From a virus (lineage: Duplodnaviria; Caudoviricetes), in IMG/VR virus record IMGVR_UViG_3300032237_000198, positions 1-36,833 of that record: 36,833 nucleotides of DNA; one strand, given 5' to 3'. The notes under the pieces were generated by a model, which was not told where the DNA came from, made no database searches, and was given only the letters and a program-made list of their open reading frames with translations. This document shows, in pieces, positions 8,492 through 29,095 of the stretch. Position 1 is the first letter of the stretch; each line of letters starts with the position of its first letter. Position numbers and translations under genes: made by a program.

Positions 8492-8520
8492 AATATCTAC
8501 CAAGGAAGGGTTCGTGTCAA
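8492..8520 (-). promoter_or_regulatory. Sigma70-like promoter for the 8484 gene
   Basis: Minus strand reads TTGACA-N17-GATATT-N7-ATG. Confidence 0.5.
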
Positions 8521-8522
8521 CT

Positions 8523-8912
8523 ATGAAAATTAAGTTATCCCCACGCCAAATTGGGGCCATTGGAGTCTCAAGGGTTGTAAGTTCACTTTTGAGATGTGGA
8601 TACAATGTGCTTGCCCCGCTGGAGGATTTTTCTGGATATGATTTGGTAGCTGAAAAGCATGGCAAGTTTCATCGCATTCAGGTAAAGGCAGCACAGAATG
8701 TCGAGCCTGGTCGAAGTAGGTATCGCTTCACCACTTCCTGTGGGTCTGGATACAATGCACCCAAGAAGGTCATTACTGGAGTAGATTATGTAGCCTGCTG
8801 GGGGATGCACGACGACCTTTTCTGGTTGTTACCAATTGCACGCTGTAAGAGCGTCACAACTTTGCTTTGCCCATCGACAGGTCAGAGCTGGCGTGTATTC
8901 CAAAACCTATGA
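8523..8912 (+). CDS. PD-(D/E)XK endonuclease (PDDEXK_5-like)
   Basis: GYDLVAEKHGKFHRIQVK and VDYVAC motifs. Confidence 0.8.
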   Translation: MKIKLSPRQIGAIGVSRVVSSLLRCGYNVLAPLEDFSGYDLVAEKHGKFHRIQVKAAQNVEPGRSRYRFTTSCGSGYNAPKKVITGVDYVACWGMHDDLFWLLPIARCKSVTTLLCPSTGQSWRVFQNL

Positions 8913-9133: not shown

Positions 9134-9577
9134 ATGGGCAAAATTAACAGTAGGGCTAAAGGTGCAGCAGGAGAGCGTGAACTAGCAAATTACTTACGCG
9201 AGCAGGGATGGCAAAAGGCTCGCAGATCCCAGCAATATGCTGGTAATCCTGAAGGTGGATCAGGCGATGTTGTATGCGAAAACTTTCCATTCCATATCGA
9301 GGGGAAACGCTGTCAGGCTTTAAAGCCAGAAGATTGGATGGAGCAGTCGAAACGTGACTGCCCAGGGGGCAAGATCCCAGCCGTGTTCTTTCGCCGTAAT
9401 GGCCGAAAGGAATGGCTCGTTATTCTTACAGCAGATTCGGTCTGCGAATTAGCTCGACAACTCGCACCTGCCAATGTCACTATTGAATATGTTAAAAACC
9501 AACCAACCCAAACAGCGGTACAAGGATTCTATGTCAAACAACCATCCGATCTCACAATTGTTAATCCCAACAAATAA
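9134..9577 (+). CDS. Holliday junction resolvase-like PD-(D/E)XK nuclease
   Basis: NSRAKGAAGERELA...GDV...HIEGKR...PAVFFRRN. Confidence 0.85.
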   Translation: MGKINSRAKGAAGERELANYLREQGWQKARRSQQYAGNPEGGSGDVVCENFPFHIEGKRCQALKPEDWMEQSKRDCPGGKIPAVFFRRNGRKEWLVILTADSVCELARQLAPANVTIEYVKNQPTQTAVQGFYVKQPSDLTIVNPNK

Positions 9578-13639: not shown

Positions 13640-13769
13640 AACTATAGGCGACATGATCTGGGTTGTGACTTGGCTGTTATTTATGCTGGCCGTACTTGTC
13701 TCGATTGCACTCGCTGGAGTTTTTATTGTTTTCAAGTTGATTGAATTCATTAAGGAAAATGTGCTGTGA
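13626..13769 (+). CDS. Small membrane protein (47 aa; below the ORF-track cutoff)
   Basis: MGLLETIGDMIWVVTWLLFMLAVLVSIALAGVFIVFKLIEFIKENVL; fills the gap and has a GTGA overlap with the next gene. Confidence 0.65.
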   Translation: MGLLETIGDMIWVVTWLLFMLAVLVSIALAGVFIVFKLIEFIKENVL

Positions 13770-14182
13770 GAAGTTCCAGCGGATTACACGAAACATATGA
13801 GGATATGGCAAATGAAAAGCGAATTGTGTTGGAGTTTGCCAAGCATTGTGGTGGCAAGGCAAAGCACATGCCGAAAGCTTACCCATTCGACGCGATGATC
13901 CTGAAGGGTGATAAGTATGCATTTGTTGATGTAAGGAAGACTGGATACGAAATAGGTAGGTTCCCAACGCGATGCCTGTCGCTGCAAAAGTATATATCCC
14001 TAAAGTTATATGCTGCATTTGCACCAACGTTTTATGTGATCGAGTGGGCGGATGCGATGGGGTATTACGAGATCAAGGAGAACAGCAAGCTTCAATTGTT
14101 CTACATGTCGAGGGATAGTGGAGATCCCCGCGATAATGAGCCGTGTGTTGAGATTCCAATTGCAGACTTTAAAAGGTTTTGA
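13766..14182 (+). CDS. PD-(D/E)XK-like protein with an atypical catalytic motif
   Basis: YPFDAM...AFVDVRK, EWAD, RDSGDPRDNEPCVEIP. Confidence 0.5.
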   Translation: MRSSSGLHETYEDMANEKRIVLEFAKHCGGKAKHMPKAYPFDAMILKGDKYAFVDVRKTGYEIGRFPTRCLSLQKYISLKLYAAFAPTFYVIEWADAMGYYEIKENSKLQLFYMSRDSGDPRDNEPCVEIPIADFKRF

Positions 14183-14760: not shown

Positions 14761-14945
14761 TGACTGAAGAGGCAAAATCACGCCTCCAGTGGTCGCGCGA
14801 TATCCTTCTCATTGCTCGCGGAAAGCTGGCAGTTGAGAGGGATCGCGTGAGCCATGGCCATGCCATAGATATGATTCAGATCATAACCATGGTTGATGCT
14901 GCTGCCCTGATAGCGAAGGAGATTATTGAAGATGAAAACAAATGA
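14760..14945 (+). CDS. Hypothetical protein
   Basis: 61-aa ORF with TAATG coupling. Confidence 0.6.
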   Translation: MTEEAKSRLQWSRDILLIARGKLAVERDRVSHGHAIDMIQIITMVDAAALIAKEIIEDENK

Positions 14946-15120
14946 TGAGCTTGCAATGCAGGTGAAGAAGGAGTGGGATGAGAAAGGATGGAGATGGAAG
15001 CTGTCCCTATCGGCTGGCGGATTTACCAGCGAGATATATTGTTATGGGACATCCGAGGAGGGGTACTTCAATTGCGTTAGGGAGCTGGTAAGCCATGCAT
15101 ACCAGATGCAGAGCGTATGA
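14932..15120 (+). CDS. Hypothetical protein
   Basis: 62-aa ORF with an ATGA overlap with the methyltransferase. Confidence 0.6.
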   Translation: MKTNDELAMQVKKEWDEKGWRWKLSLSAGGFTSEIYCYGTSEEGYFNCVRELVSHAYQMQSV

Positions 15121-16700
15121 AGTACCTATCCGTATGTTCTGGCATTGAGGCAGCGTCCAAGGCTTGGGAGCCTATCGGATGGGAGCCAGTTGCGTTTTCA
15201 GAAATAGAGCCATTTCCGTCAGCGGTGCTGAAGCATCATTGGCCGGAAGTACCAAACTTAGGAGACATGAGTAAATATGAACAATGGGAAATACAAAGCG
15301 GATCAATTGACATTCTGGTCGGAGGAACGCCATGCCAGTCCTTCAGCGTCGCAGGATTGCGTCAAGGACTCAAAGACCCCAGGGGAAACCTTATGCTTAC
15401 ATATCTTGCAATCGCTGAACGTCTCAAACCTCGATGGCTTGTCTGGGAGAATGTCCCCGGTGTCCTGTCATCCAACGGAGGAAAAGATTTTGGTTCCTTC
15501 CTCGGGGCGTTGGGGAACTTGGGGTATGTCGACTGGGCGTACAGAGTCCTCGACGCTCAGTGGTTCGGAGTGGCCCAAAGACGCAGACGTGTGTTCGTTG
15601 TCGCACATCTTGGAGAAGGGAACCTTGCCGCAAAGGTTTTATTTGAGTCCGAAAGCGTGTGCAGGAATTCTGCGCCGAGCCGAGAAGCGGGGCAAAGAGT
15701 TGCCACCAATGTTGAAGCAGGCGTTGGAGGCGGTGACAAAATAGACGCATTCAGAATGCAGGCTTTTGGCGAGTATGCCAACGATGGAACTGCATCAGCA
15801 ATGAAGGCTAGGGATTACAAGGATGCTACTGATCTTGTTGCGTCATCAATTGTAGGGTCATTATGTGCCAGAGACTTCAAGGGAGTTGGAAGCCAATATG
15901 TTGATGAAGGTAAATGCATACCTGTTGCCATTCCAATCCACGATCAAGCCACTCGAAACGCTGGTAAGCGTGGCAACAAGCAGGATGGCAAGGGCAACGG
16001 ACTTGGCGTTGGCAAGCCAGGTGATCCAGCTCCTACTTTGACCAAGGGAGATAAGCATGCGATTGCGTTTCAAACTTCCGAGCTTCGATTAACTGGCAAA
16101 CTGACCGAACAATCTGTTTGCCCTACGCTGAAGGCAAATACGAAGGCTGGTGATACTGAAGTTAAAGTTGTCTTATACGAAAACCATCCCAACGACAGCC
16201 GGGTAACTGGCCCGCACGATGTCGCTCCTAGTTGCGTATCGAGATACGGAACTGGTGGTGGGAATGTGCCATTGGTGCAGGAGGCGATTGCCTTTGAACC
16301 TGGCATCGCAACCAGAGAGGGTAACGAGAGCAGATTTGTTAAAGAACTATCTCCGACACTGCGTAAGGAGATGGGTGATAATCAGGTTGCGGTAGCAGTT
16401 GATTGCTATAACAAAACAATTGGAGACAAGTCGCAATCTATTTCATCTTCAGCGTCAGACATCAATCATACTGGTGGAGTCATAAATCCAGCAGATAGGA
16501 TGGCAGTACGCAGGCTCTCTCCAAGAGAATGTGAGCGACTCCAAGGCTTTCCAGACGATCACACGATGATCTCTTGGCGTAACAAGCCATCGGATCAATG
16601 CCCAGATGGGCCACGCTACAAGGCTCTTGGAAACTCTATGGCTGTGCCGTGCATGGCTTGGATTGGAAAAAGGATTGACGCGGTTGAGAAATCTAAATAG
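15117..16700 (+). CDS. DNA (cytosine-5)-methyltransferase with a long modular variable region
   Basis: Motif I SVCSGIEA, IV GGTPCQSFS, VI WENVPG, VIII QRRRRVF, IX RRLSPRECERLQGFPD, X YKALGNS. Confidence 0.95.
   Translation: MKYLSVCSGIEAASKAWEPIGWEPVAFSEIEPFPSAVLKHHWPEVPNLGDMSKYEQWEIQSGSIDILVGGTPCQSFSVAGLRQGLKDPRGNLMLTYLAIAERLKPRWLVWENVPGVLSSNGGKDFGSFLGALGNLGYVDWAYRVLDAQWFGVAQRRRRVFVVAHLGEGNLAAKVLFESESVCRNSAPSREAGQRVATNVEAGVGGGDKIDAFRMQAFGEYANDGTASAMKARDYKDATDLVASSIVGSLCARDFKGVGSQYVDEGKCIPVAIPIHDQATRNAGKRGNKQDGKGNGLGVGKPGDPAPTLTKGDKHAIAFQTSELRLTGKLTEQSVCPTLKANTKAGDTEVKVVLYENHPNDSRVTGPHDVAPSCVSRYGTGGGNVPLVQEAIAFEPGIATREGNESRFVKELSPTLRKEMGDNQVAVAVDCYNKTIGDKSQSISSSASDINHTGGVINPADRMAVRRLSPRECERLQGFPDDHTMISWRNKPSDQCPDGPRYKALGNSMAVPCMAWIGKRIDAVEKSK
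15277..15744 (+). CDS. Overprinted (+1 frame) MTase partner polypeptide, EcoHK31I-beta-like; true start may be ATG 15451
   Basis: 155-codon open frame inside the MTase ending in CSLSHILE...PQRFYLSPKACAGILRRAEKRGKELP. Confidence 0.7.
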   Translation: MNNGKYKADQLTFWSEERHASPSASQDCVKDSKTPGETLCLHILQSLNVSNLDGLSGRMSPVSCHPTEEKILVPSSGRWGTWGMSTGRTESSTLSGSEWPKDADVCSLSHILEKGTLPQRFYLSPKACAGILRRAEKRGKELPPMLKQALEAVTK

Positions 16701-16712
16701 AAAGGCAACACA

Positions 16713-17855
16713 ATGAAACTATGGAAAAACAACACACCAGCAGTCCACGTTGTGGACGACAATAAACTGTGGCCACGCTGTAGCTACATCCTACCAGACG
16801 AGCTGACAAACCCTCCGTTCAACGAGGCGATCCCTGTTCCGCACAAAATCAAACCATACTATCCAGGCAGAGCTGAGGGTGGATCGACTGCCTTATATCG
16901 AGCAGGAGCAATCGGTGACGCGATCATGGCTACTGGAATCGTGCGATACTTGGTAGACACCTCTGGGGGGAGCGTGGACATTTACTGTCCTGCTCGTAAC
17001 ATGTCGCTGTTCGCTGGCTTGGGTGCGAATGTATATCCGCTACCACCTACCGAGGAAGCATGGGATTCCTACGATGCGCACGTTGTGCTAGATGATTTGT
17101 TTTCAGGCAAGGTTGGTGGAACCGAGCTAGGCACTGGACCTGGTTGTCACTACGATAGGATCTATAACTGGATGGGGGCAGAGGGGATTGTGGCTGATAT
17201 CACTGGCAGGGCTGGAGATGTTAAGCTTGTTGATCCTAAGTACAAACGTCCGCACCTCTACGTTGTCCAGCCTGACCATGAGGAGCTGGTAAAGAGTGGA
17301 CGCTGGCCTTTGCCTAATCCTTACTTCGTCTACCACGTTTCATCCTCTGGTCCTACCCGCACCTATCCGCCTCAGTTGGGTAAGCTTGCGGTGCAGGCGT
17401 TGCTGGAAGAGTTTCCGAAACATCATGCGGTCATCATAGGACTGGACAGGTCAATTGACTTTAACATCCAGCATCCGCGCATATATGATTTGTTTAACTC
17501 CACTGCAAATGTTCGCACGTTATTCCCAGTCGTGAATGGTGCTGACTTTGTTGTTGCGCCTGACAGCTCGGTGAACCACATGGCAGCTGGTTTGGATACG
17601 GCGTGCATATCGTTATGGGGAGCGTACGACCCAATGGATCGTTGCAAGTATTATCAAAAGTCCTATCCAGTGTTTGCACCTGAAGTTTGTCCGCATGCTC
17701 CTTGCAGACCCCACGGCGCGCTACCACAGGCTAAGTGCAAGGACGCAAGCAATAAGACCAAAGGCACGCAGTACTGGTGCAACGCACTTCGCAACATCAC
17801 AGCTGAAATGATCGTGGAGAAAGCGAAGAAGGCGATGGAGGACGAGAAGGATTAA
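16713..17855 (+). CDS. GT-B fold glycosyltransferase family 9 (heptosyltransferase-like)
   Basis: RAGAIGDAIM, ADFVVAPDSSVNHMAAGLDT...SLWG, Cys-rich C-terminal CPHAPC...C...C. Confidence 0.85.
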   Translation: MKLWKNNTPAVHVVDDNKLWPRCSYILPDELTNPPFNEAIPVPHKIKPYYPGRAEGGSTALYRAGAIGDAIMATGIVRYLVDTSGGSVDIYCPARNMSLFAGLGANVYPLPPTEEAWDSYDAHVVLDDLFSGKVGGTELGTGPGCHYDRIYNWMGAEGIVADITGRAGDVKLVDPKYKRPHLYVVQPDHEELVKSGRWPLPNPYFVYHVSSSGPTRTYPPQLGKLAVQALLEEFPKHHAVIIGLDRSIDFNIQHPRIYDLFNSTANVRTLFPVVNGADFVVAPDSSVNHMAAGLDTACISLWGAYDPMDRCKYYQKSYPVFAPEVCPHAPCRPHGALPQAKCKDASNKTKGTQYWCNALRNITAEMIVEKAKKAMEDEKD

Positions 17856-28257: not shown

Positions 28258-28294
28258 GCTTTGACTTTGTCGGTATAGTCGCTTGTATTGCTTC

Positions 28295-29095
28295 ATGGAA
28301 ATGAAGCAATTTGAATTTAAGCTTCCGTCTTGCAATAATGAGAAATCCGTAAAATTTGTATTGGATTATTCTCAATTCAGCCAAAAGCACATAGGCGTGC
28401 ATTTTGAGCATGGGCAAATGTATGAGGGAGAAACATTTGATTTTATATCAAAAAATCTAAGAAATGGAGACACCTTTCTTGATATTGGGGCGCACATAGG
28501 ATTTTTCAGCATTGTATCCTCAAAAATAGTTGGAGATTTTGGTAAAGTTTATTCATTTGAAATGAATAATTTTAATTACTCTCACTTGCTTGCCCACATA
28601 AGAATAAATGAATCAAAGAATATTGTTCCACACAATTGGACTGTATCGGATAAATCTGGTGTTATTGAATTTTTTAATAATATAGACAATGACGGAGGAC
28701 ATTCATTGTGGGATTGCGGTAAGCATGAATTCAATATTAAAAGCAAGGAAAATCCTAAAAGCATAATTTCTTATTCAATTGCAATTGATGATTATTTTGA
28801 CAGCAATCGCAAGGTAAATTTAATGAAAATTGACACAGAAGGTGCAGAAGTACTTGTTTTGAAAGGAATGCAGAATTTACTTAAAAGAGATCATCCAATT
28901 GTAGTAGCAGAAGTAAATGAATTTGGATTAAAACAGATGGGATTTAGCTATAGTGATTTACGTAAAATTATGTCTGATATTGGGTACAGATGCTGGAAAC
29001 TTGATCTTCAAAAACCAATTGAACTCAAAGATGATGAAAAAGTTGAAAGCGACTATATTTACAATATTGCGTTTTCTATTGAAGATATAAAATGA
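28295..29095 (+). CDS. FkbM-family SAM-dependent methyltransferase
   Basis: FLDIGAHIGFFS, VYSFE, LMKIDTEGAEVLVLKG; visibly AT-rich. Confidence 0.92.
   Translation: MEMKQFEFKLPSCNNEKSVKFVLDYSQFSQKHIGVHFEHGQMYEGETFDFISKNLRNGDTFLDIGAHIGFFSIVSSKIVGDFGKVYSFEMNNFNYSHLLAHIRINESKNIVPHNWTVSDKSGVIEFFNNIDNDGGHSLWDCGKHEFNIKSKENPKSIISYSIAIDDYFDSNRKVNLMKIDTEGAEVLVLKGMQNLLKRDHPIVVAEVNEFGLKQMGFSYSDLRKIMSDIGYRCWKLDLQKPIELKDDEKVESDYIYNIAFSIEDIK

What the first reader, a model, noticed from the sequence alone, without database searches (positions are those of the whole stretch)
15243..16202. CCGG is purged from the genome except inside the MTase gene
Seen by manual scan: only three CCGG sites, at 15243, 15457 and 16199, all within the 1.6-kb MTase ORF. 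CCGA, CCGC and CCGT are common everywhere. At mid-40% GC, chance predicts roughly 90 sites. Inference: long-term selection against a CCGG-targeting host system (HpaII/MspI-like or modification-dependent). The MTase gene is then either a recent, un-ameliorated arrival or keeps the sites because of dual-coding constraint or autoregulation; two of the sites lie at or within the overprinted region.
Basis: partly seen in the sequence, partly recalled or inferred. Interest (0 to 1): 0.75.

Follow-up and report, generated by a model that had tools for sequence, protein, structure and literature searches.

The report
Imported phage methylase carries forbidden sites
An uncultured phage lacks the four-letter site CCGG everywhere, as its close relatives do, except for three copies inside a DNA-methylase gene that its closest relatives lack and that was likely picked up recently from a sister phage that tolerates the site; the gene is predicted to make a two-chain enzyme with seven swappable DNA-reading modules.

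Summary
The count is right: CCGG occurs only at 15243, 15457 and 16199, all in a C5-cytosine methyltransferase gene (15117-16700); 34-103 are expected. CCGG is one of more than a dozen purged motifs, and three complete relatives lacking this gene hold 0, 0 and 1 sites, so the purge is clade-wide restriction-site avoidance, independent of the gene. The gene fills a swappable slot: 17 of 19 close relatives spanning it lack the gene. Its nearest homolog (L046, 93% DNA identity, distant backbone, CCGG-tolerant flank) shares two of the three sites and a module seen nowhere else. A relative (L008) shows the same tracer effect in a non-methylase block. Autoregulation is rejected: 12 of 15 homologs in purged backbones have no site. 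Only one site lies in the overprinted frame. The gene itself is the better find: a conserved hidden second chain (open in 68 of 68 homologs, predicted to bind) plus seven shuffled target-reading-like modules, likely multispecific. Both features have precedents (M.EcoHK31I, Bacillus phage enzymes, P1 dmt), and this scan noted a similar enzyme on other DNA (e1-6146734). Host, donor and target motifs remain unknown.

The parts
15117..16700 (+). C5-cytosine DNA methyltransferase, large chain, 527 aa; catalytic motifs I-VIII, variable region, motifs IX and X
   Evidence: PF00145 E 8.9e-52; phrog_116; TIGR00675 over cut-off; aligns to M.HaeIII at residues 48-169 and 464-517; fold matches M.HaeIII/M.HhaI
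15277..15744 (+). Overprinted +1-frame ORF, 155 aa, predicted small second chain; preceded by an AGGAG ribosome-site-like motif
   Evidence: phrog_16143; frame open for at least 150 codons in 68 of 68 homologs, raised third-position conservation; 1373 relatives; predicted complex 0.79 vs best control 0.00
15738..16505 (+). Array of seven 26-47 aa modules resembling target-recognition domains (residues 208-463)
   Evidence: Breakpoint clustering over 33 proteins; TL-like core enrichment; module 1 shared with P1 Dmt; module 2 found only in L046 among 125 loci
15243..15246 (.). CCGG site 1, single-frame region, shared with 5 of 31 homologs, all from CCGG-tolerant backbones
15457..15460 (.). CCGG site 2, in motif VI and in the overprinted frame; shared with 12 of 31 homologs (10 tolerant, 2 purged backbones)
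16199..16202 (.). CCGG site 3, in module 5; shared only with the distant L065
15627..15631 (.). GCCGC, one of two GCSGC sites in the genome; a true two-frame lock, invariant in 30 of 30 homologs that cover it
16713..17855 (+). GT9-like glycosyltransferase gene; conserved right border of the swappable slot
   Evidence: PF01075; DNA match to closest relatives resumes at 16695-16709

Best explanation
The phage's lineage has no CCGG, likely because hosts cut that site with a type II restriction enzyme, and the three surviving sites sit in a methyltransferase gene that likely entered recently by recombination from CCGG-tolerant sister phages and has not yet been cleaned. Shown: the purge is clade-wide and covers many motifs; the gene occupies a variable slot and is missing from the closest relatives; two sites and one rare module are shared with L046. 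Inferred: restriction as the cause, the direction and recency of transfer, and that the gene is a mosaic of several alleles. The gene itself likely makes an orphan anti-restriction enzyme: a large chain plus a small chain read from a second frame, with seven modules each predicted to read one DNA motif (untested).
For: Complete relatives G003, G006, G007 hold 0, 0, 1 CCGG in about 37 kb each and lack the gene. 23 close loci (307 kb) hold 12 sites, 10 of them in one block. 2 of 19 slot-spanning close loci carry the gene; others hold a small gene, a different two-frame C5 methylase, another methylase type or nothing. Primase tree (quick mode) groups the window with L001, L002, L003, L019, all lacking the gene; the gene tree pairs it with L046, 98/91 support. 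L046 is 92.9% identical over 15117-16060, against 66% at the primase. CCGG density in the gene tracks that of its backbone, Spearman 0.81, n = 31, kin not independent. Second tracer: 5 of 20 CCCG/CGGG lie in the gene, p = 0.0013; 3 of 18 not overlapping CCGG, p = 0.04. Independent case: all 10 CCGG of L008 lie in a 2.15-kb non-methylase block 95.4% identical to CCGG-rich L053. Site avoidance is a documented phage strategy (PMC6286503, passages).
Against: The donor is not pinned: at columns separating purged from tolerant homologs the window sides 21 to 20 (14 to 18 without the GC-rich clade). L046 is still 5.5% different in the core, lacks site 3 and lacks module 4, which is commoner in purged backbones. 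L046's flank is only 2.8 kb with 3 sites, and most of its primase clade is purged. Other purged motifs are not enriched in the gene, 2 of 13, p = 0.11, though most of those are purged in the tolerant lineages too. Two other close relatives (L016, L037) carry the gene with 1 and 0 sites, so carriage in this clade is not new. No host or CCGG restriction enzyme was identified.
Confidence: 0.75

Rival explanations
1. Self-licensing cassette: one module of the enzyme (candidate: module 2) methylates CCGG, so a phage that gains the gene tolerates the sites it brings and may start to regain others.
For: Module 2 occurs only in the window and L046 among 125 loci, and both genes carry CCGG. Site 3 is a rare variant, consistent with a new site arising under relaxed selection.
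Against: No CCGG in the other 35 kb. 17 of 33 carriers sit in purged backbones, and no module-CCGG association survives 28 tests, lowest p = 0.010. Tolerant backbones without this gene have 46 CCGG per 10 kb. n = 2 for module 2.
Confidence: 0.12
2. Dual-coding constraint keeps the sites.
For: At 15457, 0 of 12 single changes are silent in both frames, and it is the site kept by 2 of the 3 site-bearing genes in purged backbones. GCCGC at 15627 shows that such locks exist here.
Against: Two of three sites are outside the overlap and have 3 and 5 silent exits. 19 of 31 homologs lack site 2.
Confidence: 0.05
3. The purge is mutational: a host CCGG methylase without a nuclease drives C-to-T loss at the inner cytosine.
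For: In 192 aligned contexts the commonest counterpart of CCGG in purged loci is CTGG/CCAG, 90.
Against: 50 of 192 counterparts are inner transversions; the comparison is not polarised and codon position favours inner changes. Near-total absence over whole genomes, for many motifs at once, is more than mutation bias normally gives (established knowledge). It would not change the import explanation for the three sites.
Confidence: 0.05
4. Autoregulation: the enzyme methylates or binds CCGG in its own gene.
For: Site 1 lies 34 nt upstream of the second chain's start.
Against: 12 of 15 homologs in purged backbones have no site; no position is conserved; no promoter-like element above chance near the sites.
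Confidence: 0.02

Closest known systems
Restriction-site avoidance in dsDNA phages (Rusinov et al. 2018, PMC6286503; abstract and passages read)
   Same: Near-complete loss of short, mostly palindromic type II-like sites across a phage genome.
   Different: Host and enzymes unknown here; leftover sites mark imported blocks. The passages read do not discuss that use.
Multispecific C5 methyltransferases of Bacillus temperate phages (described in PMC12707154, passage; TL motif in PMC2413257, passages; enzyme names M.SPR and M.phi3T are recalled)
   Same: Orphan phage C5 methylase with several short modules arrayed between motifs VIII and IX, most with a TL-like core.
   Different: Seven modules drawn from at least 28 types in one phage population; has an overprinted second chain; no listed match of the module region to a Bacillus phage (60 of 64 rows seen); specificities untested.
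M.EcoHK31I (PMC2836561, passages)
   Same: Second chain encoded wholly inside the large chain's gene in another frame.
   Different: There the small chain carries motif IX; here motif IX is in the large chain and the small chain is predicted to pair with residues 138-146 and pack on motif IX. That enzyme is monospecific (YGGCCR).
Phage P1 Dmt, C5 domain (NC_005856.1)
   Same: 44% identical over residues 3-248; shares module 1 (62.5% over 40 aa); has the same hidden +1 frame (163 codons, 59% identical over 66 aa), which the record does not annotate.
   Different: P1 Dmt is fused to a Dam-type domain and has a shorter module array; this gene has no such fusion.

Membership tests
C5-cytosine DNA methyltransferase (PF00145) | Motifs I-X in order with catalytic PC and ENV | tested here: met
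   177 bits vs cut-off 22; alignment to M.HaeIII; P72-C73 and E111-N112-V113 invariant in 62 rows
C5-cytosine DNA methyltransferase (PF00145) | Methylates cytosine C5 in DNA | not testable with these tools
   needs an assay
Multispecific phage C5 methyltransferase | Several discrete modules between motifs VIII and IX that vary as units among homologs | tested here: met
   7 modules in the window; about 3-10 per gene in 33 proteins, exchanged as units
Multispecific phage C5 methyltransferase | Each module has a TL motif | tested here: inconclusive
   A short core pattern that I chose after seeing the modules matches 20 of 28 module types vs 32 of 143 background windows and 5.6 on average in shuffles. 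The full published consensus was not scored; module 3 fits its core by eye. The region is unresolved in the model, pLDDT under 50.
Multispecific phage C5 methyltransferase | Methylates more than one motif, one per module | not testable with these tools
   module-motif association gave nothing after 28 tests
M.EcoHK31I-type heterodimer | Small chain wholly overprinted in the large chain's gene | tested here: met
M.EcoHK31I-type heterodimer | Small chain carries motif IX | tested here: not met
   motif IX is at residues 464-480 of the large chain; so it works like, but is not filed as, this type
M.EcoHK31I-type heterodimer | Both chains associate and are needed for activity | tested here: inconclusive
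   Predicted only: score 0.79, best of 3 controls 0.00; mark reached by 116 of 157 solved and 2 of 215 mismatched pairs; runs agree in at least 87% of contacts; partner pLDDT 81-82. Halves of a split enzyme can pass by likeness to solved methylases.
Type II restriction-site avoidance | Specific short motifs nearly absent genome-wide and in relatives | tested here: met
Type II restriction-site avoidance | Host encodes a nuclease for the avoided site | tested here: inconclusive
   no host found

The most novel reading that the evidence does not exclude
This phage group keeps a shared, recombining library of at least 28 target-reading modules that are plugged into one two-frame methyltransferase; each allele is an anti-restriction key ring, and the window's allele carries a CCGG-reading module (module 2) that licenses the forbidden sites it brought in. 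Module content and site avoidance would then be two alternative answers to the same host enzymes, readable from sequence.
Probability: 0.15. Interest if true: 0.62.

Novelty: new variant of a known kind. Interest (0 to 1): 0.36.

Why it matters
The CCGG pattern is ordinary biology with a practical use: in a purged phage clade, leftover sites flag recently imported DNA (shown twice here). The methylase matters more. If its modules are target-reading domains, the natural series of shuffled alleles is a ready set for mapping short peptides to DNA motifs, a question so far studied on a few Bacillus phage enzymes. The hidden second chain is missed by the P1 annotation and would be lost in codon-optimised clones of the large chain, a likely cause of inactive enzymes.

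Tried and rejected
Host search: capsid protein against genome contigs found nothing; a primase alignment found two pieces, a 1-kb contig in a Verrucomicrobia bin and an 8.9-kb contig in bin G002, whose methylase loci range from 29% to 61% GC and look like mixed phage contigs; neither is accepted as host. Capsid search of cultured phages gave only matches of about 30% identity. Chimeric assembly: not supported in run X1, which may be the source. A test of variant sharing (p = 6e-6) was biased by construction and is not used; the symmetric versions are reported instead (21:20, and 40 vs 22 minority positions). The 0 of 192 retention follows from choosing purged loci and is not evidence. Module-to-CCGG association: nothing after 28 tests. 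Small chain against solved structures: no significant match; no Pfam or NCBIfam family. Promoter, terminator and repeat scans of the slot gave nothing above chance. The careful primase tree did not finish; the quick tree is cited. L062 dropped out of the module clustering (33 of 34 proteins used). The primary paper on multispecific domains (PMC450048) was not available, so module sizes were not compared with it. Searches that returned no paper on a hidden chain in the P1 dmt family or on leftover sites as import markers; the library lacks most subscription journals. The supplement of PMC2413257 (motif tables that might predict targets) was not read.

Full report
Observation. CCGG occurs three times in 36,833 bases, at 15243, 15457 and 16199, all within ORF 15117-16700. 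Expectation is 103, 90, 74 or 34 by model, and CCGG is the most depleted tetramer (z = -8.8). The clustering is unlikely by chance (8e-5 for this ORF, about 0.006 for any equal span). The window is a phage (terminase, portal, capsid, primase, endolysin) with a 123-bp terminal repeat. Contigs of run X1 match without differences across both gene junctions and all three sites at even depth; this run may be the source, and 16414-16591 lacks an identical listed piece. Only site 15457 is inside the overprinted ORF.

The purge is broad and belongs to the clade. GCSGC and ACSGT occur twice each; GGATCC, CGATCG, CTCGAG, CCTAGG, GCTAGC, RGCGCY, GAGCTC, CACGTG, ACGCGT and GCTNAGC not at all; GRCGYC and GGYRCC once; CCCG/CGGG 20 times against 72 expected. 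Three complete relatives that lack this gene hold 0, 0 and 1 CCGG. Twenty-three close loci (307 kb) hold 12. More distant sister lineages are tolerant, at 31-46 per 10 kb, with or without the gene. This is the pattern described for avoidance of type II restriction sites (PMC6286503, abstract and passages). That restriction is the cause here is inference: no host was found.

The gene sits in a swappable slot. The closest relatives L001, L002, L003 and L019 match the window at 86-89% upstream and 93-95% downstream, and break off at 14936-15121, resuming at 16695-16709. In the slot they carry a small unknown gene or a different two-frame C5 methylase; other relatives carry another methylase type or nothing of the kind. 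Of 19 close loci that span the slot, 2 carry this gene. The quick primase tree places the window with those four gene-less loci; the gene tree pairs it with L046 (98/91), whose primase region is only 66% identical.

The sites came with the gene. Of 31 homologs, 5 share site 1 (all in tolerant backbones), 12 share site 2 (10 tolerant, 2 purged), and 1 shares site 3. L046 shares sites 1 and 2, and is the only one of 125 loci with module 2. Density inside the gene tracks density outside (Spearman 0.81, n = 31, related sequences): 3 sites in 22.3 kb of genes from 15 purged backbones, 67 in 23.3 kb from 16 tolerant ones. CCCG is enriched in the gene as well (5 of 20, p = 0.0013; 3 of 18 without overlap, p = 0.04), other purged motifs are not (2 of 13, p = 0.11). 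L008 repeats the pattern without any methylase: its 10 CCGG all lie in a 2.15-kb block 95.4% identical to tolerant L053.

Limits of that reading. The donor is not identified. At diagnostic columns the window sides 21 to 20 with purged and tolerant homologs, it differs from L046 by 5.5% in the core, and it has module 4, which L046 lacks. The allele is best read as a mosaic with L046-like parts. L016 and L037 show that the clade has taken up this gene family before, with 1 and 0 sites left.

Autoregulation and dual coding. No site is conserved, and 12 of 15 genes in purged backbones have none, which rejects autoregulation. Sites 1 and 3 have 3 and 5 silent exits; site 2 has none silent in both frames, yet 19 of 31 homologs lack it. 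A real two-frame lock exists at GCCGC 15627: no silent exit of 15, invariant in 30 of 30 covering homologs, in a genome that otherwise has one GCSGC.

What the gene is. The large chain is a C5-cytosine methyltransferase with motifs I-VIII, IX and X. The +1 frame 15277-15744 is open for at least 150 codons in 68 of 68 homologs, has an AGGAG upstream, and third-position conservation of the large chain rises to 0.95 under its second half against 0.77-0.83 outside the overlap. A complex prediction supports binding: 0.79, best of 3 controls 0.00; the mark was reached by 116 of 157 solved and 2 of 215 mismatched pairs; runs agree in at least 87% of contacts; partner pLDDT 81-82; the pass may come from likeness to solved methylases. 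The small chain is placed against residues 138-146 and motif IX, so it likely supplies the segment that follows motif VIII in one-chain enzymes (inference). M.EcoHK31I has the same gene layout, but its small chain carries motif IX (PMC2836561, passages). Phage P1 dmt has the same hidden frame, unannotated in its record, and 535 plasmid records match the small chain, so the layout is widespread.

The module array. Residues 208-463 split into seven units of 26-47 aa that are gained, lost and exchanged whole among 33 proteins; at least 28 types were distinguished. A TL-like core pattern, chosen after seeing them, matches 20 of 28 types against 32 of 143 background windows. The TL motif marks target-recognition domains (PMC2413257, passages), and Bacillus temperate phages array several such domains in one enzyme to block many restriction systems (PMC12707154, passage). 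Multispecificity is therefore likely but untested; the model leaves the region unresolved, and no module is tied to CCGG tolerance. Acquired orphan methylases that protect phages are known (PMC4190342, passages).

Verdict. The purge is a known strategy and is independent of the gene; the exception is most likely a footprint of recent import (0.75). The enzyme is a new variant of known kinds: a two-frame, many-module orphan C5 methylase of the P1 Dmt family. Interest 0.36.

Noticed in passing
L008:1-2148: A CCGG-purged relative carries a 2.15-kb block 95.4% identical to CCGG-rich L053; all 10 of its CCGG lie there.
   Followed up: yes
L013:7830-8734, L014:4455-5348, L002:7972-8738, L003:6484-7386: The same slot holds a different two-frame C5 methylase. 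In L014 the second frame carries a motif IX-like segment and WPTP repeats, as in the M.EcoHK31I layout; in L013 the two frames appear crossed over, with motif X in a separate ORF.
   Followed up: partly
L142:1959-2447 (phage P1, inside dmt): An unannotated 163-codon +1 frame in P1 dmt is 59% identical over 66 aa to the window's small chain.
   Followed up: partly
window 15627-15631: GCCGC locked by both reading frames; invariant in 30 of 30 homologs despite genome-wide GCSGC purge.
   Followed up: yes
window 28283-29095: FkbM-type methyltransferase gene in a low-GC (36%) stretch between portal and capsid genes, absent from the four relatives that cover it; a second likely import, with no CCGG.
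   Followed up: no
L004, L006, L007, L009, L010: A sub-lineage that purges CCGG but not RGCGCY, GRCGYC, GGYRCC or ACSGT; avoidance profiles differ by sub-lineage and may mark host shifts.
   Followed up: no
window 8514-8912, 9134-9577, 13766-14182: Three PD-(D/E)XK nuclease genes; the one at 13766 is also in relatives lacking the methylase, so it is not its partner.
   Followed up: partly
G002 (L126, L128-L141): A genome bin with 14 C5 methylase matches on loci of 29-61% GC, several phage-like, including a relative of this phage; looks like a mixed bin.
   Followed up: partly
window 16713-17855: GT9-like glycosyltransferase conserved beside the primase in nearly all relatives; its identity to the window (about 64-99%) does not always follow the primase's, a sign of block exchange.
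   Followed up: no
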